A DNA stretch of 64,000 nucleotides from Chloroflexota bacterium (lineage in GTDB: Bacteria > Chloroflexota > UBA11872). The position numbers and the translations under genes were made by a program. The DNA lies in assembly GCA_026706485.1 (NCBI GenBank), contig JAPOYR010000002.1, forward strand, positions 321,251 through 385,250, written 5' to 3'. Below are positions 9,299 to 26,452 of the stretch, in pieces; within the stretch, counting starts at the first letter, position 1; each line of letters starts with the position of its first letter. The notes beneath the pieces were generated by a model. The model did no database searches and was not told the origin of the DNA. It worked only from the letters and a program-made list of their open reading frames with translations.

Positions 9299-9745
9299 CT
9301 AACGGCCCAGCAGCTCAATGCGGCCACCGTAACGCTCGAAGTCGCCAGTGTTGAATGTCAGCAGCCGGCGTTCCCCGTGGGCCAACATGGTTGCGACGAC
9401 GTTGGCGTCGTGAATCTGCCGTCCCCCGGCGGGAACCTCTCGACATAGCGCCACCAAGAGCTCGGTCACCATGGGCCCGTCCTCGAGGATCTCGAAGCTG
9501 CCGATCAGCCGGCTCACGTCATCGAGAGCTTCTTCGCGCGTGAGGGCCACCGGCCAGGTCTGCGGACGAGTGACCACCGACAGGTATTCGCGTATCACCT
9601 GACGACTGATTCTCAGTGGTTCGGGGGCTCGAAAGGCGCGTTCCAGGCTTTTCCGCGCCGCGTCGTGGTCCGGCGCGCCGGGGATGCGGGACATCACCAG
9701 CACGTTCGTGTCGATGAACACGGCGGCGCTAGAGCCTCTCCTCAT
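9299..9745 (-). CDS. vapC: PIN-domain ribonuclease (VapC-like toxin)
   Basis: N-terminal FIDTNVLV motif with acidic residues at PIN positions; about 148 aa. The upstream partner gene overlaps it by 17 nt. Confidence 0.75.
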   Translation of the reverse strand: MRRGSSAAVFIDTNVLVMSRIPGAPDHDAARKSLERAFRAPEPLRISRQVIREYLSVVTRPQTWPVALTREEALDDVSRLIGSFEILEDGPMVTELLVALCREVPAGGRQIHDANVVATMLAHGERRLLTFNTGDFERYGGRIELLGR

Positions 9746-10133
9746 AGAGATCCTCTCGCCTGAGACTCAGGCCCTCCGGCCACACCGCGGTGGGATGGAC
9801 GGGCCACGCCTCGTCGAGCGGAAGCCTGGGCTCGGGCTTGGCGTGCGTTCGACGGAACAGCAGTTCCTCGGCTTCCATGTCCACCTCGGCCGTCTCCCAG
9901 CCGGCCACGCTCCAGGCCAGCGCCTGACTGTGACCGTTGCCGCGGCGCTGATTCGCCCACCACGGCCGGTGGAGACGCGCGGATGCGGGCAGCTCGAAGC
10001 CAATGATCGCCTCGATCTCGCCGAAGGAGGTCCGCCACTCCTGGCCCTGCAGCCCGCGCAGATGCCGATAGAGCCGCTGGTATTTGCCTCGGATCGCCAT
10101 CGCCCTATATCTCTGGTCACGGTCGATTGCCAT
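9729..10133 (-). CDS. Uncharacterised 134-aa protein encoded immediately upstream of and overlapping vapC; candidate non-canonical antitoxin or partner
   Basis: Real-looking ORF with good GC3 and no low complexity; its stop overlaps the vapC start. No recognisable AbrB/RHH/Phd motif could be seen; contains …LPASARLHRPWWANQ…. Confidence 0.45.
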   Translation of the reverse strand: MAIDRDQRYRAMAIRGKYQRLYRHLRGLQGQEWRTSFGEIEAIIGFELPASARLHRPWWANQRRGNGHSQALAWSVAGWETAEVDMEAEELLFRRTHAKPEPRLPLDEAWPVHPTAVWPEGLSLRREDLYEERL

Positions 10134-10205: not shown

Positions 10206-10367
10206 GCACGAGCAATTCCATGTCGTCAGTCGGCGGCGTCCGCGGCGCGTGCGGCGCATACTTGAGGCGCGCGCAATCGAGAATCCGCTTCATGGCCACA
10301 TCTGATCCGATGCCGTTGTCGGTGGCCCGCATTCGCCGAATGAACGGCTGAGGCGGGGAGCTTCGCT

Positions 10368-12107
10368 TTGGCGTCTGCAAGCGCCGACGAACGAATCCGC
10401 TACGAGCCCGACGAGCGGTGTCCGCCGTTGGTGGCGATTGGCGTCGGCGTTCAAGGAGCCTTGCTGGCGCTGGTCCCGCTCGCGGTCGTCGCCGCCATCA
10501 GCGGCGTCGCGGCCGGCCAGGACGAGCGCCAGCTCACGTGGACCCTGGTCGCGGCCCTGGTGGTCGGCGGCATCGTCACCATCCTCCAAGCAGTTCGGGT
10601 CGGGCGCGTGGGCCTGGGTCACATCATGATCATGGGCGTCACGCCCAACTACATCGCGGTCTCGGTGTTGGCGTTGGCGGAGGGTGGGCCGTCCACGGTG
10701 GCGAGCCTGCTCGTGCTTTCGTCAGTGTTCTATTTCGCCGTGGCAGCTTGGCTGCCGCAGTTGCGACGCGTCATCACCCCCGCTGTGTCCGGCACGGTGC
10801 TGATGCTGATCGCGGTGACCCTGCTCCCGATCGCCTGGGATCGGCTCCAGGAAGTTTCTGAGGGCGCACCGGCGTTCGGAGGCCCGGGCGTCGCCGCCGT
10901 CACGTTGATCGCCACCACGATCCTCGCCCTGCGTGCGCCTCGGCAATGGCGGATCTGGTCGCCGTTGGCCGGAATCGCGGCTGGCTGCGTCACCGCGGTG
11001 TTGCTTGGCCTCTATGACTTCGGGCGCGTGGTCGACGCCCCGTGGTTTGGGCTCCCCGACGCCGGGTTTCCAGGACTGGACCTCACGCCGACGGCGGGAT
11101 TCTGGGCGCTGTTGCCGATGTTCCTGGTGGTGACGGTCGTCCAAGCGATCAAGGCCGTCGGCGACGGGGTGGTCGTGCAGCAGGTCGCCTGGCGGCGGCC
11201 GCGGGCGACCGACTTCCGTCTGATTCAGGGGACGATCTACGCGAGCGCGTTGGGCACGCTCTTGGCGGGGCTGACCGGTACGCCGCCCACGAGCGCGTTC
11301 TCGGCGTCGACGGTTTCGCTGACAAACTTCACCGGGGTCGCCGCGCGCCGCGTCGCCTATGTCGTGGGGATCATCCTTGTGGGACTGGCCGTCTTGCCCA
11401 AACTTACGGGCCTGATGCTCACCATTCCCAACCCGGTGATGGGAGGGTTCCTGGTGACGGCCGTCGGCATGCTCTTCGTCGAAGGCGTGCGGACGGTCGC
11501 GCGCGGGGGGCTGGACGCGCCCACGACCCTGGTGGTGAGTCTGGCGTTTGCGCTGGGCGTGGGCTTCGAGCAGCACAACGTGTTCGAAGGCGTGGTCCCC
11601 AGCCCTTGGAGCTCACTGCTTGGCAACGGCATCACCGTCGGCGCCGCAACCGCGATTGGCCTCACGCTCTTCCTGGAAGTCACCAAGCCCAGGCGCCGCC
11701 GCTTCGAGGGTCGCCTCGACATGGCCGATCTGCCGCGACTCGACGCCTATCTGCAGGAGACCGCGGCGGCCATGCGGTGGAATGCCGCATCAACCGAGCG
11801 GTTGCGCTCCGCCGGCGAGGAGGCGCTTTCCAGCTTGCTGCGGCCGGCTGACGGCGAGGATGACGGCAAAACGCCGCGCCTGGTCGTTACGGCAAGTCCC
11901 GAGGGTCGGGCCGTCGATCTGGAATTCGTGGCCGCGGTCGACGAGGAAAACCTGGCCGATCGCCTGGCCTATCTCTCCGACCACGACGAATCACCGGCTG
12001 AATGGGATGTCTCGTTTCGCCTGCTCCGCCACTACGCGTCGACGGTCCGGCACCAGAAGTACCACGGCATCGACATCGTCACCGTGCGGGTCGACGGATC
12101 GCCCTGA
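10368..12107 (+). CDS. NCS2/SulP-superfamily permease (xanthine/uracil-type) with an extra ~140-aa C-terminal cytoplasmic domain of unknown function
   Basis: Residues 1–430 form a polytopic membrane domain with a Gly-rich, APC-like fold. The C-terminal tail (RLVVTASPEGRAVDLEFVAAVDEE…VRHQKYHGIDIVTVRV) is soluble. Confidence 0.6.
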   Translation: MASASADERIRYEPDERCPPLVAIGVGVQGALLALVPLAVVAAISGVAAGQDERQLTWTLVAALVVGGIVTILQAVRVGRVGLGHIMIMGVTPNYIAVSVLALAEGGPSTVASLLVLSSVFYFAVAAWLPQLRRVITPAVSGTVLMLIAVTLLPIAWDRLQEVSEGAPAFGGPGVAAVTLIATTILALRAPRQWRIWSPLAGIAAGCVTAVLLGLYDFGRVVDAPWFGLPDAGFPGLDLTPTAGFWALLPMFLVVTVVQAIKAVGDGVVVQQVAWRRPRATDFRLIQGTIYASALGTLLAGLTGTPPTSAFSASTVSLTNFTGVAARRVAYVVGIILVGLAVLPKLTGLMLTIPNPVMGGFLVTAVGMLFVEGVRTVARGGLDAPTTLVVSLAFALGVGFEQHNVFEGVVPSPWSSLLGNGITVGAATAIGLTLFLEVTKPRRRRFEGRLDMADLPRLDAYLQETAAAMRWNAASTERLRSAGEEALSSLLRPADGEDDGKTPRLVVTASPEGRAVDLEFVAAVDEENLADRLAYLSDHDESPAEWDVSFRLLRHYASTVRHQKYHGIDIVTVRVDGSP

Positions 12108-12135: not shown

Positions 12136-13044
12136 TCAGCCGCCGTCGAGTTCCGAAAGAAACCCGCGCACCACCTCGGCGCAGGCTTGCGGCTGTTCCA
12201 GCTGCAGAAAGTGCGTCGTCTCAGGCAGAAAGTCGTAGTCGACCGTGAGCACGTGGCTCAGATCAAAGGTCGGAAGATATGAATACGGCAAGGTTGGATC
12301 GGCGCCGACAACCTTGACGGGGCACTGCAGCGTTTCAAAGTCGACTAACACGGCAAATGCGCTGGCGTAGTCAATGATCTGCGCCTCGAATTCACGCGGG
12401 CAGCGCAGCTCGAAACCCTCGCCGTCGGCGGACTTCCGCAGCGTGGCGCGCGCCACCAGATCGAACACGCCGGGGACGCTGCGGTAGTAGGTCGGAATGA
12501 AGCTCAGCAGATCCGCGAGCTGCTCCGTGCTTTGAAACCGCTCGGTGCGGCGGCGGGCCGCGGCGGCCGTTCGCATGGCCGCGGCGTCAAAGTCCTCATA
12601 GCTCCTGCCGGGCTTGCATATCGGCGGGTCAAACAGCACCAACGCGCCGAATTCACCGCCCGTGGTCGGGGACAGCAGGGTCGTCAGCGCCGAAAACGAA
12701 TGAAAGATGCCGACTTTCGGCTTGCTCCCGAAGTGCCGATCGATCGCCTGCATGATTCGGTCGTGATCGAGAACCAGCGTCGGCACGTTGTGGTCGGCAA
12801 GGGAGGTGACAGCGTTCCAGCCATGATTTCGCAGGTCGTAGACGATCAGGTCGAAGTCTTCGGCCAGGAGCGACCAAAATGGATAGTAGAGGTCGATCGC
12901 CAGACCGTTGCCATGGCTCAGGACAAGCCGTGGGCCTGCCGGATTCCCATGACGACGCAGCGTCACGACGGTGTCGTCGTCCACGCGCACCTCGTGAATG
13001 GAAAGCGGCTCGGGCACCTGCCACACGGTTTCGTCGGTCGTCAT
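12136..13044 (-). CDS. α/β-hydrolase fold protein; candidate chain-releasing hydrolase of the PKS cluster
   Basis: HGNG…GxSxS-like nucleophile elbow (GIFHSFSA) and an α/β-hydrolase layout. Its ATG overlaps the PPTase stop (ATGA). Confidence 0.65.
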   Translation of the reverse strand: MTTDETVWQVPEPLSIHEVRVDDDTVVTLRRHGNPAGPRLVLSHGNGLAIDLYYPFWSLLAEDFDLIVYDLRNHGWNAVTSLADHNVPTLVLDHDRIMQAIDRHFGSKPKVGIFHSFSALTTLLSPTTGGEFGALVLFDPPICKPGRSYEDFDAAAMRTAAAARRRTERFQSTEQLADLLSFIPTYYRSVPGVFDLVARATLRKSADGEGFELRCPREFEAQIIDYASAFAVLVDFETLQCPVKVVGADPTLPYSYLPTFDLSHVLTVDYDFLPETTHFLQLEQPQACAEVVRGFLSELDGG

Positions 13045-13802
13045 GCGTTCGCCGGCGTTCCCAGCGTGCAGCCGTTGCCGCGGCCTTGTTCGGGCGCCGC
13101 GCGAAGTTCATGGGCGACGGCGGCGGCAAATTGCTCATTGCCAAGGTCATCCAGCCGCCACCGAACGCCCGGCATTTCGGGCGATTGCAACGTGGACTGG
13201 GTCGTGCCGCCGAGCATGGCCGTCGGAATGTGAACGCGGGACGGATCCAGGGCCATGCCCATCCCATGGGCTTTGATCAGCGCTTCCTTCATCGTCCAGA
13301 GCTTGAAGAACAGGTGAGTCCGCGCATCGCCGCGCGTACGGGCGAGCAGCGCCTGCTCCTGTTCGCCCAGCACGGTCTCCACCAGGAGGTCGAGGTTGCG
13401 GTGCGCGACGCGCTCCTCGATATCTACCCCCAGCCGGCCGGCCGGCGCGAACGCGATCAACCCATGGCCGCCGCTGTGGCTCACGTTGAAGCTGTCGGGG
13501 ACCGGCATCCCGTCCACCGTGGCAAACGGCTTGCCATGCTGGGACTCCTCGAACGCCAACTGCCCGTTCTCGCACCCGAGCCGTCGACAGAGAATGGCGC
13601 GCAGGGCCGCGCGGCACAAGCCAAAGCGACGCCGGGGACCGGCGAACTGGAAGCGTCGCCACCTGGATCGCTCAGACTCATCCAGCCACCCCATCGCCTC
13701 GGCCTCTCGGGCCGCATCCGGCGTCAGGTCGATGTGGACAATCCTCGCCTCGCCCACCAGCTTGAACGGACGCCACCAGTCCCCGACGCACGAAACCCCC
13801 AT
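13041..13802 (-). CDS. Sfp-type 4'-phosphopantetheinyl transferase
   Basis: PPTase motifs GVDIEE and FKLWTMKEALIKAHG; about 250 aa. Confidence 0.8.
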   Translation of the reverse strand: MGVSCVGDWWRPFKLVGEARIVHIDLTPDAAREAEAMGWLDESERSRWRRFQFAGPRRRFGLCRAALRAILCRRLGCENGQLAFEESQHGKPFATVDGMPVPDSFNVSHSGGHGLIAFAPAGRLGVDIEERVAHRNLDLLVETVLGEQEQALLARTRGDARTHLFFKLWTMKEALIKAHGMGMALDPSRVHIPTAMLGGTTQSTLQSPEMPGVRWRLDDLGNEQFAAAVAHELRAAPEQGRGNGCTLGTPANA

Positions 13803-13870
13803 GGACTAGGCTGGCGATTCGCGTCGGCTCCCCATGGGCGACAGTATGGCCCCCTCGCGGGAGCGTGACG

Positions 13871-14116
13871 CTAGGCGGCTTGCGCGTCGATGTACGCGGC
13901 CAGGTCCTTCAGGGTGCTGAAGCCTGCGCAGTCGTCGGGCGTGAGCGGAACGTCGAACTCGGCGACGATGACCTTGGCAAACGCTACGAAGTCCATCGAA
14001 GGAACTCCGGCGTCCGAGAGGTTGGCGTTCAAGTCGTCCGGAACGGACACGGGCTGACCGTCCACTTCGAGGTTCTCGGCAACGAGTTTCTGGATACGTT
14101 CTGCAGTCGACGCCAT
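13871..14116 (-). CDS. Stand-alone acyl carrier protein (PP-binding)
   Basis: 81-aa protein MASTAERIQKLVAENLEV…GVPSMDFVAFAKVIVAEFDV with an ACP helix pattern around the Ser. The six-frame ORF extends upstream to 14302, but that part runs through a repeat element and lacks protein character. Confidence 0.7.
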   Translation of the reverse strand: MASTAERIQKLVAENLEVDGQPVSVPDDLNANLSDAGVPSMDFVAFAKVIVAEFDVPLTPDDCAGFSTLKDLAAYIDAQAA

Positions 14117-14257
14117 GGATCGATCCTTTTCTGGAATCACCAGTTGGGCAAAGAGGCCATCAGTGTAGTCAGCGGGCGGAAGGCGATCAATTTGGCGGGC
14201 GGTCACACGACCGCGATTGCACGAGTTGCCGCGACACTGGCCGGTCGAAGCGCAAGG

Positions 14258-14286
14258 GTGGATTCCCACCTCCGCGGGAATGACGG
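14258..14286. repeat. Palindromic repeat unit (family A: ggtggattccc-N-cgcgggaatgac) in the PKS–ACP spacer
   Basis: Near-identical copies occur at 27566–27592 and 59958–59986. Confidence 0.7.
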
Positions 14287-14350
14287 CCCGGAGCCAACTC
14301 ACCTCCAGCAGCGGTCGGTTTGCGCTAGGAGTTGCGAGTCGTTAGGAGGC

Positions 14351-24622
<10,272 letters not shown>

Positions 24623-24795
24623 CTTCTTCCGTTAGGCACCGCTACCGCCGCGATGCCGGTTCATGGCTTCCTCGCACGTCGGCTCCCCGACGCCATCGTC
24701 GAGGCATTCAGGGCTGGGAGAAACCCATCGGAGATGGCCGACCAAGACCAACGATAACCGAAGATCGAAGGCCCTCGGACGAGCGGGTGCTCACA

Positions 24796-24957
24796 CTAGC
24801 CTTCGTGACGGCGTCGGCCCCAAGCGGTGCCAAGGGCTACTCCCAGGGCAACTCCGATCGCCACGCCGACGCCGACGTTGCCCAGTGCCGCGCCGATGCC
24901 CACGCCTGCACCGGCTCCGAGTGCGATGCCTAAGCCGACGTGCCTACCTGAGCGCAT
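24796..24957 (-). CDS. 53-aa glycine-zipper small membrane protein (GlsB/YeaQ/YmgE-like). Below the 60-aa cutoff of the ORF track.
   Basis: MRSGRHVGLGIALGAGAGVGIGAALGNVGVGVAIGVALGVALGTAWGRRRHEG. High GC3; lies between the PTE-like gene and the PKS. Confidence 0.4.
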   Translation of the reverse strand: MRSGRHVGLGIALGAGAGVGIGAALGNVGVGVAIGVALGVALGTAWGRRRHEG

Positions 24958-25071
24958 GCCGCGTTGCCTCCATCGCCGATGGCGACATCATGCCCTCTTT
25001 CGGATAGACGCCCTGGACGCCGCCCGCCGCTCAAGTCGCGATAGCGCCGGGCAATTCGGACCCGGCGAGCG

Positions 25072-25111
25072 CGTTCATCCCGCCATCAAGCCGTTCATCC
25101 CGCCATCAAGC
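25072..25111. repeat. Perfect 20-nt tandem duplication (cgttcatcccgccatcaagc ×2) straddling the stop codon of the PTE-family gene
   Basis: Read directly from the sequence. Confidence 0.8.
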
Positions 25112-26170
25112 AAAGCCGAGAATGCGCTTCGGATTCTCGAGCAGGATGGTGTCGATCTGCTCTTGGTCGAAGCCTCGTTGCCGCATCATCGGCACCACAT
25201 AGTTCAAGATGTGGGGAAAGCCCCAGCCACCGTAGCGAACCCGCGTCGACTTGCGGCAAATGTCGTGTGAGACCAGGATCTGCTCGAGGTGGCCCGCCTC
25301 CAGCAGCGCCAGGATCTCGTAGATGCGCTGGGTGTCGTTGGGGATATCCATGTAATCGTCGGCGGTCCAGTACGAAGGGAAGTGGCCCTCCCAACCGAAG
25401 ACGTCGTATTCGAGGTAGCACCCGGTCCGCGCCAGTCGCAGGCGCTCCTCGGGGGTGCGCAGGCGGACGTCAATGTGGCACATGATGACGCGGCGCAGAT
25501 CGGCGCCGGCGGCGGAGATGATATCCACTATTTCGAAGGGTGCGGCGCGGTTGCGGCCCGGATGAATGCTGAGGCATGCGCCGGTGTGCCGCTGCGCCCG
25601 GGCGGCGGCGCGCAGCACCTTGCGCTCGTTGTCCTCCAGCGGCCAGGAACAGCCGATCTCGCCGACGATGCCGGCCTTGACGCCGCTGTCGCCGACGCCG
25701 ATTTCGATGTCCCGGACGATTTCCGCAAACACGTCGTCCTCGCTCTTCGCGGCAAGCTCGGGGGGATGACTCGGGGCGGTGTAATATCCCGATCCCATGA
25801 TGATGTTGAGCCCAGTGGAGCGGGCGATCCGCGCCAGGCCTTCCGGGTCGCGTCCGACGCCGTTGATGGTGCAGTCGACGATGCTTTTGCCGCCCGCCAC
25901 TTTGAAGAGCAGGGCTTCGTCTATGGCCTCGCGCTCGTCCAGCAGGCGCAGGTTGTCCAGATTCTCAAAGGAGTGGTAGCGCAACCAGCCCAGGTTCTCG
26001 ATGCCGACCGGCTCGAAGGCCCGCCCCCGCTGGCTCGCCGCGGCGGGCAGCGCAAAGGCGCAGGACAGATCGACGAGCAGGTGTTCGTGAGGCAAGGTAA
26101 TGCCCAGCTCGTCGCCGCATATCAAGCCCAGGACGGTCTGGACTTTTCCAACTCGTGAGGCATCGGCCAT
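25106..26170 (-). CDS. Phosphotriesterase-family (PTE/PTER, amidohydrolase TIM-barrel) protein; possible lactonase
   Basis: …VLGLICGDELGITLPHEHLLVDLS… with metal-binding His/Asp pattern; about 354 aa. Confidence 0.8.
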   Translation of the reverse strand: MADASRVGKVQTVLGLICGDELGITLPHEHLLVDLSCAFALPAAASQRGRAFEPVGIENLGWLRYHSFENLDNLRLLDEREAIDEALLFKVAGGKSIVDCTINGVGRDPEGLARIARSTGLNIIMGSGYYTAPSHPPELAAKSEDDVFAEIVRDIEIGVGDSGVKAGIVGEIGCSWPLEDNERKVLRAAARAQRHTGACLSIHPGRNRAAPFEIVDIISAAGADLRRVIMCHIDVRLRTPEERLRLARTGCYLEYDVFGWEGHFPSYWTADDYMDIPNDTQRIYEILALLEAGHLEQILVSHDICRKSTRVRYGGWGFPHILNYVVPMMRQRGFDQEQIDTILLENPKRILGFA

Positions 26171-26271
26171 ATCTGCACGCCTCCGCTATGTGCCCGCGAA
26201 CTTCGCGAAGCCGGCACGAAATACCGCCCGCATAGCCGACGTTTTCAGGCTCTTGGGTCTGTCAAAGGCGG

Positions 26272-26345
26272 TGGGCGCGAGGGGACTCGAACCTCTGACC
26301 TCCACGATGTCAACGTGGCGCTCTAACCAGCTGAGCTACGCGCCC
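26272..26345 (-). tRNA. tRNA-Val (anticodon GAC)
   Basis: Reverse complement GGGCGCGTAGCTCAGCTGGTTAGAGCGCCACGTTGACATCGTGGAGGTCAGAGGTTCGAGTCCCCTCGCGCCCA folds as a cloverleaf with anticodon loop TTGACAT. CCA is not encoded. Confidence 0.85.
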
Positions 26346-26452
26346 GCGGTGCAACCCGCCCGGCGGGTGCGCGTAGCATACTTCATCGGTTTCAGGCGCC
26401 AGACAGGCGCGCGGCGCATACTTGGGGTCTGCGAGATGGGGAATCTGCACGC

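What the first reader, a model, noticed from the sequence alone, without database searches (positions are those of the whole stretch)
12136..26345. About 14-kb type I PKS cluster with FAS/HR-PKS-like domain order plus KS-AT, trans ACP, PPTase and hydrolase
One 3423-aa protein carries KS-AT-DH-cMT-ψKR-ER-KR-ACP, the domain order of animal FAS and fungal highly-reducing PKSs (LovF-like), with a C-methyltransferase inserted. It is followed by a second KS-AT that lacks its own ACP. Downstream, on the same strand, are a free 81-aa ACP, an Sfp-type PPTase and an α/β-hydrolase. PPTase and hydrolase overlap by ATGA, which supports an operon. Upstream on the same strand are a PTE-family putative lactonase and a Gly-zipper micro-protein, then tRNA-Val. 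Taken together this is a complete, self-contained megasynthase system (carrier protein, activator, releasing enzyme). No loading domain is present, so KS priming is probably iterative. The likely product is a methyl-branched reduced acyl or polyketide chain; the product and its biological role cannot be read from the sequence.
Basis: partly seen in the sequence, partly recalled or inferred. Interest (0 to 1): 0.8.

Follow-up and report, generated by a model that had tools for sequence, protein, structure and literature searches.

The report
Sponge-symbiont "Sup" polyketide synthase cluster
This is an intact copy, in a Chloroflexota genome from a metagenome, of the already described "Sup" polyketide synthase cluster that is widespread in sponge-associated bacteria and thought, but never shown, to make methyl-branched fatty acids.

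Summary
One 3423-aa ORF (14351-24622, minus strand) carries KS-AT-DH-cMT-ψKR-ER-KR-ACP-KS-AT. An 81-aa ACP, an Sfp/HetI-type PPTase and an α/β-hydrolase follow it, with an ATGA overlap between the last two.

It is not a new kind of system. The exact proteins occur in Chloroflexota MAGs. At least 586 related loci exist in species-representative genomes of over ten phyla. This architecture, gene set and spread match the published "Sup" (sponge symbiont ubiquitous PKS) cluster.

- The second AT is dead: its Ser is replaced by Gly and about 73 aa, including the catalytic His, are deleted. This holds family-wide.
- The convergent NCS2 permease (10368-12107) is a recurrent cluster member (SupE).
- The PTE gene, the Gly-zipper ORF and tRNA-Val are not part of the cluster (0 of 61 related loci for PTE and Gly-zipper).
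- The synthase is a CurJ/CurL-like bacterial cis-AT module, not a FAS or fungal-type one.

Three further findings:
- The KR has His at the catalytic Tyr position in every homologue.
- The window's gene is a recombinant, with a breakpoint at the ACP|KS2 junction.
- An imperfect 42-nt direct repeat flanks the 16-kb block.

The product remains unproven. The best guess is a SAM-methylated, fully reduced acyl chain handed through KS2 to the free ACP.

The parts
14351..24622 (-). supA-type megasynthase, 3423 aa: KS1-AT1-DH-cMT-ψKR-ER-KR-ACP-KS2-AT0
   Evidence: Single ORF. Pfam domains. The same domain order and spacing occur in all 80 related loci. Exact and ≥90% identical copies occur in Chloroflexota MAGs, where PGAP names the protein 'SDR family NAD(P)-dependent oxidoreductase'.
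23303..24586 (-). KS1 (aa 13-440). Cys187/His322/His362. DPQQR and HGTGT motifs intact.
   Evidence: Closest solved relative of KS1-AT1 is CurL KS-AT, E 1e-201.
21923..22915 (-). AT1 (aa 570-900), active. GHSVGE (Ser661) and RAFHS motif, read as malonyl-type (inference).
   Evidence: GHS[VLI]GE is kept in all aligned homologues.
20912..21805 (-). DH (aa 940-1237). His971 in HxxxDxxxxP (Asp in place of the usual Gly; homologues have Gly or Asn). Asp1144 in LDGCFQ.
19745..20722 (-). C-methyltransferase (aa 1301-1626). [11 protein letters not shown] motif. NVLHAT invariant in 14 aligned sequences.
   Evidence: Pfam Methyltransf_12/23. Aligned to the CurJ cMT structure 5thy, E 5e-62. Invariant columns.
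18983..19705 (-). ψKR structural subdomain (about aa 1640-1880)
   Evidence: No Pfam hit here. Part of this stretch aligns with the region before the ER in the MAS structures 5bp4 and 9d2z. Homologues carry precomputed PF22953.
18065..18925 (-). ER (aa 1900-2186). [13 protein letters not shown] motif.
   Evidence: CurK ER 9e-60.
17303..18022 (-). KR (aa 2201-2440). TGGLGGIG, Lys and Ser kept. His2347 stands where the catalytic Tyr normally is.
   Evidence: Pfam KR 3e-62. His aligns to the Tyr of the YAAAN motif in MAS 9d2z. His is present in all aligned homologues.
16979..17176 (-). Integrated ACP (aa 2483-2548). GMDSLM, Ser2510.
15563..16888 (-). KS2 (aa 2579-3020). Cys2743/His2878/His2918.
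   Evidence: Present in 61 of 61 full-flank loci at 57-80% identity.
14444..15211 (-). AT0 (aa 3138-3393): degenerate acyltransferase. GHGIGE (Ser replaced by Gly3229). About 73 aa, including the catalytic-His motif, are deleted.
   Evidence: BLASTP of AT1 against AT2. Pfam matches two separate stretches. The Ser is lost in nearly all homologues and the small subdomain is lost in all. Some homologues lack AT2 entirely.
13871..14116 (-). supB-type free ACP, 81 aa. Ser40 in GVPSMD.
   Evidence: PP-binding 3e-10. Ser conserved. Present in 50 of 61 loci.
13041..13802 (-). supC-type Sfp/HetI-family PPTase, 253 aa
   Evidence: ACPS + AASDHPPT_N. HetI model 3e-25, below its cutoff. GVDIE and WxxKEAxxK motifs conserved. 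Present in 29 of 61 loci.
12136..13044 (-). supD-type α/β-hydrolase, 302 aa. HGNG oxyanion motif. Ser116/Asp249/His278 triad.
   Evidence: Abhydrolase_6. Triad invariant. 3428 relatives, the best 120 at 67-94% identity. Present in 49 of 61 loci. No close solved relative.
10368..12107 (+). supE-type NCS2 (xanthine/uracil-family) permease, 579 aa, convergent with supD. Has a roughly 140-aa C-terminal extension of unknown fold.
   Evidence: Xan_ur_permease 5e-40 over aa 26-403. pbuX-like, below cutoff. Present in 31 of 61 loci. PMC3908369 lists 'SupE (ABE03914) permease' of clone pAPKS18.
10247..10288 (+). Left copy of an imperfect 42-nt direct repeat that, with 26407-26448, brackets supE through tRNA-Val. 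A possible island boundary; uncertain.
   Evidence: family D5, 76% identity. The 17-nt core occurs only at these two places in the window, with 0.07 expected by chance.
26407..26448 (+). Right copy of the same 42-nt repeat

Best explanation
The locus is a complete, intact Sup-type cluster (supA-E) in the chromosome of an uncultivated Chloroflexota bacterium.

Proposed mechanism:
1. The PPTase (SupC) converts both carrier proteins to their holo form.
2. KS1 is primed directly with an acyl thioester from the cell's fatty-acid pool. No loading domain or ligase exists in the cluster.
3. AT1, the only live acyltransferase, loads malonate.
4. After condensation, the embedded CurJ-like C-methyltransferase adds a SAM-derived α-methyl group.
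5. KR, DH and ER reduce the unit fully, giving a 2-methyl-branched saturated acyl chain on the integrated ACP.
6. The chain passes to KS2. KS2 has no working AT and no carrier of its own, so it condenses the chain with malonate carried by the free ACP SupB. AT1 (or the housekeeping FabD) loads SupB in trans.
7. The resulting β-ketoacyl-SupB is either processed further by the type II fatty-acid enzymes or released or transferred by the Ser-Asp-His hydrolase SupD.

The expected end product is a mid-chain methyl-branched fatty acid or lipid.

Shown here: the gene and domain content, the state of the catalytic motifs, family-wide conservation, and co-occurrence of the accessory genes.

Inferred: the primer, the number of cycles, trans-loading of SupB, the role of SupD, the role of the permease, and the product.
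For: Family assignment:
- The exact proteins are found in metagenome scaffolds and in NCBI Chloroflexota MAGs.
- At least 586 related stretches occur in GTDB species representatives. The best 80 (59-76% identity over the cMT-ψKR region) are all MAGs, spanning Chloroflexota, Gemmatimonadota, Latescibacterota, Binatia, Alpha- and Gammaproteobacteria, Acidobacteriota, Nitrospinota, Bacteroidota, Spirochaetia, Acidimicrobiia and Opitutales.
- Published work describes exactly this. Sup is a small mono-modular PKS dominating sponge metagenomes and proposed to make mid-chain-branched fatty acids (PMC4245539, PMC3908369). SUP-like clusters occur in MAGs of Chloroflexota, Spirochaetota, Proteobacteria and Acidobacteriota independent of taxonomy (PMC9426513). 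SupE is a permease (PMC3908369).

Mechanism:
- All catalytic motifs of KS1, AT1, DH, cMT, ER, ACP and KS2 are kept across 63 full-length homologues.
- AT1 has the xAFHS motif, read as malonyl-type (inference), and the cMT is CurJ-like. The methyl group therefore comes from SAM.
- AT2 has lost its Ser and its His-bearing subdomain family-wide, while KS2 is retained in 61 of 61 loci.
- The free ACP and the hydrolase co-occur with supA in about 80% of loci, and nothing else recurs.
- The recombination breakpoint at ACP|KS2 shows that module 1 and KS2-AT0-supB-E behave as two exchangeable units.
- Multimodular relatives have one GHSxGE AT followed by full-length GHGxGE ATs. This is a precedent for one AT serving several carriers.
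Against: - No Sup product has been demonstrated. None of the held papers reports one.
- No named reference SupA-D sequence could be retrieved, so membership rests on architecture, gene set, habitat and distribution, not on a direct alignment or KS tree.
- The KR has His instead of the catalytic Tyr. If this KR were inactive, the whole reductive loop would be idle.
- The PPTase and permease are missing from about half of the related loci within ±10 kb.
- SupD has no characterised close relative, and its predicted structure matches only generic α/β-hydrolases. Its role as a releasing enzyme is a guess.
- That the source samples are sponges is inferred from sample and MAG names and from the literature. 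No tool output states it.
Confidence: 0.65

Rival explanations
1. Iterative, MAS- or fungal HR-PKS-like synthase. Module 1 alone cycles many times to build a multi-methyl-branched chain from a short primer, and the hydrolase releases it. KS2-AT0 is an evolutionary leftover and the free ACP is auxiliary.
For: The domain set of module 1 equals that of known iterative reducing synthases. The reducing region is most similar to mycocerosic acid synthase (E 3e-102). No loading module or ligase exists. AT0 is clearly decayed.
Against: KS2 is present in 61 of 61 loci at 57-80% identity, with its Cys-His-His triad kept in almost all. That is not expected of a relic when the adjoining AT has decayed. 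The free ACP co-occurs in 82% of loci. The KS-AT is closest to modular cis-AT PKSs such as CurL, not to iterative synthases.
Confidence: 0.15
2. The point of the system is the unreduced second extension. KS2 plus SupB make a 4-methyl-3-oxoacyl thioester, which SupD offloads as a β-keto acid (leading to a methyl ketone), an ester, or an acyl transfer onto another molecule. The product would be a specialised lipid or signal rather than an ordinary fatty acid, and the permease would move it or a precursor.
For: Module 2 has no reducing domains. SupB and SupD are the two most constant partners (50 and 49 of 61 loci), and SupD is very strongly conserved (67-94% among the best 120 relatives). A membrane permease recurs in half of the loci.
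Against: A discrete ACP could just as well feed the type II FAS reductases. NCS2 permeases are known for nucleobases and ascorbate, not lipids (family knowledge). There is no chemical evidence either way.
Confidence: 0.17
3. The cluster is a decaying, non-functional passenger of horizontal transfer.
For: AT2 is dead. The KR lacks the canonical Tyr. Degraded copies exist elsewhere: L006 is a fragment next to a transposase, and several loci are split. Della Sala et al. saw 15% frameshifted supA amplicons (PMC4245539).
Against: This copy is a 10.3-kb uninterrupted ORF. Most of the 80 homologues are also single 3200-3500-aa frames. All other catalytic motifs are conserved across phyla. The His-type KR also sits in multimodular PKSs next to Tyr-type KRs, which suggests a working subtype.
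Confidence: 0.03

Closest known systems
Sup cluster (supA-E; 'sponge symbiont ubiquitous PKS') of Fieseler et al. 2007 and Hochmuth et al. 2010, as cited in PMC3908369 and PMC4245539
   Same: One small PKS with a single complete FAS-like reducing module that includes a methyltransferase. Accompanied by a free ACP, PPTase, hydrolase and a permease (SupE). Found in metagenome MAGs of many phyla. Proposed product is methyl-branched fatty acids.
   Different: Nothing defining differs, as far as could be tested. Direct sequence comparison with the reference clones could not be run. The supB-D gene assignments are from my memory of the 2007 paper, which is not in the held library.
Swf cluster (swfA-C), the second sponge-wide mono-modular PKS/FAS (PMC3908369)
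   Same: Mono-modular reducing type I synthase, widespread in sponge microbiomes, product unknown. A SupE-like permease lies near one swf copy.
   Different: SwfA is KS-AT-DH-ER-KR-ACP without a methyltransferase. Its DPQQR motif is altered, HGTGT is changed to HATGT, and its AT reads GHSSGE/IAFH. Its partners are a reductase-sulfotransferase and a radical SAM enzyme. The window has an intact DPQQR and HGTGT, a cMT, and none of those partners.
CurJ-type module of the curacin/jamaicamide cis-AT PKSs (KS-AT-DH-cMT-ER-KR-ACP)
   Same: Same domain order. Closest solved relatives are CurL for the KS-AT, CurJ for the cMT and CurK/JamJ for the ER.
   Different: Those are modules inside long assembly lines. 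Here the module stands alone, followed only by KS2-AT0. The KR carries His instead of Tyr.
Mycocerosic acid synthase (MAS) and MAS-like PKSs of mycobacteria
   Same: Best structural match for the ψKR-ER-KR region (E 3e-102). Makes methyl-branched fatty acids on a fatty-acyl primer.
   Different: By established knowledge, MAS takes its methyl branches from methylmalonyl-CoA and has no cMT. It has no second KS. Its KR has Tyr. The window's AT1 has the xAFHS motif, read as malonyl-type (inference), plus a SAM-dependent cMT.
Fungal highly reducing PKSs (LovB/LovF) and animal FAS
   Same: Same linear order of domains, with the cMT in the same position as in LovB.
   Different: Much more distant in sequence. 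KS-AT: E 3e-109 for LovB and 2e-89 for animal FAS, against 1e-201 for CurL. KR: 2e-29 for LovB. There is no C-terminal KS-AT0 in those enzymes.

Membership tests
Sup cluster (sponge symbiont ubiquitous PKS) | A single, unusually small PKS gene with one complete FAS-like reducing module that contains a methyltransferase | tested here: met
   KS-AT-DH-cMT-ψKR-ER-KR-ACP in one ORF. The literature describes 'small monomodular PKS' (PMC4245539).
Sup cluster (sponge symbiont ubiquitous PKS) | A SupE-type permease next to the PKS genes | tested here: met
   NCS2 permease at 10368-12107, convergent with the hydrolase. Found in 31 of 61 related loci. 'SupE (ABE03914) permease' in PMC3908369.
Sup cluster (sponge symbiont ubiquitous PKS) | Free ACP, PPTase and hydrolase genes (supB, supC, supD) beside supA. 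The gene list is recalled from Fieseler et al. 2007, which is not held. | tested here: met
   All three are present and conserved. That they define the family rests on memory, not on a text I could read.
Sup cluster (sponge symbiont ubiquitous PKS) | The KS domain falls in the Sup clade of KS phylogenies, together with reference SupA and sponge KS amplicons | not testable with these tools
   No named SupA sequence or amplicon was returned by the three protein searches. The published alignments are held only as images.
Sup cluster (sponge symbiont ubiquitous PKS) | KS motifs DPQQR and HGTGT intact (the targets of the degenerate primers that recover sup genes) | tested here: met
   DPQQR at aa 98 and HGTGT ending at aa 326. 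HGTGT is kept in nearly all homologues.
Sup cluster (sponge symbiont ubiquitous PKS) | Occurrence in sponge-associated bacteria of many phyla, independent of taxonomy | tested here: inconclusive
   The multi-phylum spread is clear. Sponge origin is inferred only from names (Ca. Palauibacter irciniicola, Ca. Porisulfidus, and bin labels used in sponge studies) and from PMC9426513. No tool output states the sample habitat.
Swf cluster | SwfA = KS-AT-DH-ER-KR-ACP without MT. DP[I/V]QR and HATGT in the KS. Partners swfB (reductase-sulfotransferase) and swfC (radical SAM). | tested here: not met
   A cMT is present and DPQQR/HGTGT are intact. No such neighbours occur in the window or in 80 related loci. 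Definition from PMC3908369.
MAS-like iterative PKS | Methyl branches from methylmalonyl-CoA through a methylmalonyl-specific AT (YASH-type motif), with no cMT. The domain set ends after the ACP. | tested here: not met
   AT1 motif is RAFHS/xAFHS. A cMT is present. An extra KS2-AT0 follows. The family definition is from established knowledge.
Fungal HR-PKS / animal FAS | Closest sequence relatives are fungal HR-PKSs or animal FAS | tested here: not met
   CurL 1e-201 against LovB 3e-109 and animal FAS 2e-89 for the KS-AT. MAS and bacterial PKSs lead for the reducing region.
CurJ-type cis-AT PKS module with embedded cMT | KS-AT-DH-cMT-ER-KR-ACP, with the NVLHAT motif of the cMT conserved | tested here: met
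   As a domain type it is a member. It is not part of a multimodular assembly line.

The most novel reading that the evidence does not exclude
The His-for-Tyr ketoreductase may be a distinct, working KR subtype that travels with the embedded C-methyltransferase as a cMT-ψKR-(ER)-KR cassette. It may be adapted to α-methyl-β-ketoacyl intermediates.

The Sup cluster may also be built from two separately exchangeable units: module 1, and KS2-AT0 plus supB-E. These may move between phyla on small islands such as the 16-kb block here, which is bracketed by a 42-nt direct repeat.

I could not find either point in the held literature, and I could not read the original Sup papers.
Probability: 0.25. 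Interest if true: 0.5.

Novelty: new member of a known kind. Interest (0 to 1): 0.3.

Why it matters
Sup clusters are among the most abundant biosynthetic genes in sponge microbiomes, yet no product is reported in the papers I could search. This copy is complete, with all five genes uninterrupted in a chromosomal context, so it is a usable template for expression.

Three points narrow the testable mechanism:
- Only AT1 is alive.
- KS2 and the free ACP form a second, non-reducing step.
- The KR uses His where Tyr is expected.

As a discovery the locus itself is ordinary. It re-finds a family already reported from Chloroflexota and other sponge-symbiont MAGs.

Tried and rejected
- **Full-length protein search.** A database search with the whole 3423-aa protein timed out.
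- **Named reference sequences.** Searches with the cMT-ψKR region, the hydrolase and the KS amplicon region returned hundreds to thousands of relatives, but none named SupA-E. A direct comparison with the reference clones was therefore impossible.
- **Original papers.** Fieseler 2007 and Siegl 2011 are not in the held library. The supplementary KS and AT alignments of PMC3908369 are held only as images.
- **Noisy literature searches.** Two searches were swamped by 'suPAR' and 'supE/supD' hits.
- **PTE lactonase and Gly-zipper ORF as cluster members.** Rejected: 0 of 61 related loci carry them.
- **Extra conserved neighbours** (ligase, reductase, regulator). None recur in 80 loci.
- **SupD function from structure.** The AlphaFold model is only moderate (pLDDT 68). 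Foldseek gave generic α/β-hydrolases at TM about 0.45. PDB and NCBIfam sequence searches gave only weak N-terminal matches.
- **SupE C-terminal extension.** No Pfam or PDB match.
- **tRNA-Val as an integration site.** No second copy of its 3' end exists in the window.
- **Empty-site arrangement.** Look-up of the flanking PALP gene found only the same arrangement.
- **Promoter and terminator scan.** Nothing above the shuffle expectation.
- **His-KR as unique to Sup.** Rejected: multimodular PKS relatives also carry it.

Full report
**1. What is there**

On the minus strand lies one ORF of 3423 codons (14351-24622). It is followed by:
- an 81-aa ORF (13871-14116, after a 234-nt gap)
- a 253-aa ORF (13041-13802)
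- a 302-aa ORF (12136-13044)

The start of the last ORF overlaps the previous stop as ATGA. Upstream on the same strand are a 53-aa Gly-rich ORF, a 354-aa PTE-family gene and tRNA-Val(GAC).

Pfam confirms the domains on the large protein: two KS, AT (three stretches), DH, methyltransferase, ER, KR and PP-binding. It also confirms PP-binding, ACPS/AASDHPPT_N, Abhydrolase_6 and PTE on the small proteins. The ψKR has no Pfam hit here, but it aligns with the pre-ER region of solved mycocerosic acid synthase structures.

**2. Anatomy in detail**

I aligned 63 full-length homologues taken from related loci. The alignment shows:
- KS1 has an intact Cys-His-His triad.
- AT1 reads GHS[VLI]GE with an xAFHS motif, which I read as malonyl-type (inference).
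- DH keeps its His and Asp.
- The cMT keeps its SAM motif, and NVLHAT is invariant. Its closest solved relative is the CurJ C-methyltransferase (E 5e-62).
- ER keeps its NADPH motif.
- The integrated ACP reads GMDSLM.
- KS2 has a Cys-His-His triad that is almost always kept.

Two departures stand out.

*The second AT is dead.* In the window GHSVGE has become GHGIGE. About 73 residues corresponding to the small subdomain, including the catalytic His motif, are deleted. Pfam accordingly matches two separate pieces. The Ser is lost in nearly all homologues and the subdomain is lost in all. About eight homologues lack AT2 altogether, keeping only the post-AT linker.

*The KR has His2347 where the catalytic Tyr belongs.* His2347 aligns to the Tyr of YAAAN in MAS. 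This holds in every aligned homologue.

The accessory proteins look functional:
- The free ACP keeps its Ser.
- The PPTase keeps its GVDIE and WxxKEAxxK motifs.
- The hydrolase has an invariant HGNG motif and a Ser116/Asp249/His278 triad.

**3. Where it comes from and what it belongs to**

The exact hydrolase, ACP, permease, PTE and megasynthase sequences occur on 0.3-0.4-Mb metagenome scaffolds and in NCBI MAGs labelled Chloroflexota. The rest of the window carries housekeeping genes (GlmS, TilS, FtsH, glutamate synthase), so this is chromosomal DNA.

A scan of one genome per species found at least 586 related stretches. The best 80, at 59-76% identity over 600 aa, are all MAGs from more than ten phyla. 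Clustering mixes phyla at ≥73% identity. For example, Gemmatimonadota, Gammaproteobacteria, Binatia and Acidobacteriota fall in one cluster.

This is the published picture of the Sup cluster:
- Sup enzymes are small mono-modular PKSs proposed to make mid-chain-branched fatty acids, and their producer was unresolved in 2014 (PMC4245539).
- SUP-like clusters occur in MAGs of Chloroflexota, Spirochaetota, Proteobacteria and Acidobacteriota independent of taxonomy (PMC9426513).
- Sponge SAR202 and Caldilineae carry such type I PKS clusters (PMC6306507).

PMC3908369 also lists SupE of clone pAPKS18 as a permease. The window has an NCS2 permease (10368-12107) convergent with the hydrolase.

I could not align the window to the reference SupA-E sequences. 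None was retrievable, and the original paper is not held. The Swf family is excluded by its defining features.

**4. Which genes belong**

Among the 61 related loci with full ±10-kb flanks, the counts are:

| Gene | Loci with it (of 61) |
|---|---|
| Free ACP | 50 |
| Hydrolase | 49 |
| Permease | 31 |
| PPTase | 29 |
| PTE | 0 |
| Gly-zipper ORF | 0 |

The window's order, A B C D followed by a convergent E, is the commonest single arrangement (9 of 61). An all-against-all comparison of flanking ORFs found no other recurrent neighbour. In particular there is no acyl-CoA ligase, FAAL, reductase or regulator.

**5. How it most likely works**

- Module 1 is a CurJ-like fully reducing module. Its KS-AT is closest to CurL, its cMT to CurJ, its ER to CurK/JamJ, and its reducing region to MAS. 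It is not a FAS or fungal-type enzyme.
- With an AT1 read as malonyl-type and a SAM-dependent methyltransferase, each pass should add a C2 unit bearing an α-methyl group and reduce it fully.
- KS2 is conserved in every locus while its AT has decayed, and a free ACP almost always accompanies the gene. The economical reading is a second, non-reducing condensation on SupB, with AT1 or FabD loading SupB in trans.
- Multimodular relatives show the same logic. One GHSxGE AT is followed by full-length GHGxGE ATs.
- SupD, a conserved Ser-Asp-His hydrolase with no characterised relative, would release or transfer the chain.
- If SupB-bound intermediates enter the type II fatty-acid cycle, the result is a mid-chain methyl-branched fatty acid. 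This is the literature's proposal.

Everything after the motif analysis is inference. The rivals are purely iterative use of module 1, a 3-oxoacyl-derived product, and decay. They are weighed in the rival-explanations section of this report.

**6. Additional findings**

(a) *The window's supA is a mosaic.*

| Region | Closest loci (identity) | Other loci (identity) |
|---|---|---|
| aa 1-2500 | L008, L014, L082 (56-93% per 150-aa window) | L041 (53-79%) |
| aa 2550 to the end | L041 (81-93%) | L014, L082 (43-69%) |
| supB-E | L041 (75-94%) | - |

This places a recombination breakpoint at the ACP|KS2 junction.

(b) *AT1 and AT2 appear to exchange sequence.* The N-terminal part of AT2 is 73% identical to AT1 of the same protein, while KS1 and KS2 are 53% identical. 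In L045 the two are 95% identical and the Ser is restored. This points to repeated intragenic conversion.

(c) *His-type KRs are not limited to Sup.* In 21 proteins fetched from a search of 1.84 billion representatives, the split by my tally of the domain strings was:

| KR context | His | Tyr | Glu |
|---|---|---|---|
| Directly after an embedded cMT | 11 | 1 | 1 |
| Module without a cMT | 5 | about 24 | 0 |

His-type and Tyr-type KRs often sit in the same protein. The sample is biased towards His-KRs because the hits were chosen by similarity to one.

(d) *A 42-nt imperfect direct repeat (76% identity) brackets the block.* It lies at 10247-10288 and 26407-26448 and encloses exactly supE through tRNA-Val. 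Its 17-nt core occurs nowhere else in the window, with 0.07 expected by chance. No empty site was found to test an island model.

**7. Verdict**

This is a correct and careful observation of a system that is already described as a family, so it is a new member of a known kind. Interest is low to moderate. The family's product is still unknown, and this intact copy, together with the dead AT, the His-type KR and the two-unit structure, gives concrete experiments. But the locus does not change what is known.

Noticed in passing
window 10247-10288 and 26407-26448: An imperfect 42-nt direct repeat (76% identity, 17-nt exact-pattern core) occurs only at these two places in the window. It brackets exactly supE-supD-supC-supB-supA, the Gly-zipper ORF, PTE and tRNA-Val. 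It may mark the ends of a 16-kb island.
   Followed up: partly
window 14351-24622; breakpoint near aa 2500-2550 (about nt 16970-17120): supA is a mosaic. Module 1 is closest to loci L008, L014 and L082. KS2-AT0 and supB-E are closest to L041 (81-94%). This implies recombination at the ACP|KS2 junction.
   Followed up: yes
window 22544-22915 (AT1 N-part) against 14846-15217 (AT2 N-part); locus L045: The dead AT2 is 73% identical to AT1 of the same protein, while KS1 and KS2 are only 53% identical. In L045 the two are 95% identical and AT2 reads GHSLGE again. This suggests repeated intragenic gene conversion (D1/D3).
   Followed up: partly
window 17303-18022 (KR, His2347); proteins P0400-P0408, P0426, P0455, P0486: KRs with His in place of the catalytic Tyr also occur in multimodular PKSs, mostly in modules with an embedded cMT (11 of 13). 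Modules without a cMT in the same set mostly have Tyr. The sample is biased towards His-KRs.
   Followed up: partly
proteins P0400 and P0402: Multimodular relatives have full-length ATs reading GHG[V/A]GE. In P0400 they follow a first, intact GHSVGE AT in module 1. One live AT may serve several modules.
   Followed up: no
window 11690-12107 (C-terminal ~140 aa of the permease): The SupE-type NCS2 permease carries a C-terminal extension with no Pfam or PDB match. The extension is retained in homologues (tblastn coverage 98-100%). PMC3908369 shows a SupE-like permease flanked by anti-anti-sigma (STAS) genes.
   Followed up: partly
window 9299-10133: A PIN-domain gene and a DUF7662 gene, a likely toxin-antitoxin pair, sit directly beside the left repeat and the permease.
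   Followed up: no
locus L006 10001-13540: A degraded sup remnant (a cMT fragment and a KS-AT fragment) lies next to DDE transposase genes on a 4.2-Mb contig.
   Followed up: no
locus L007 9510-11419: In one homologous cluster an sCache-domain gene and a PP2C phosphatase gene are inserted between supA and supB. supA there is split into several frames.
   Followed up: no
window 25072-25111: A perfect 20-nt tandem duplication (CGTTCATCCCGCCATCAAGC, two copies) overlaps the 3' end of the PTE gene (D11).
   Followed up: no
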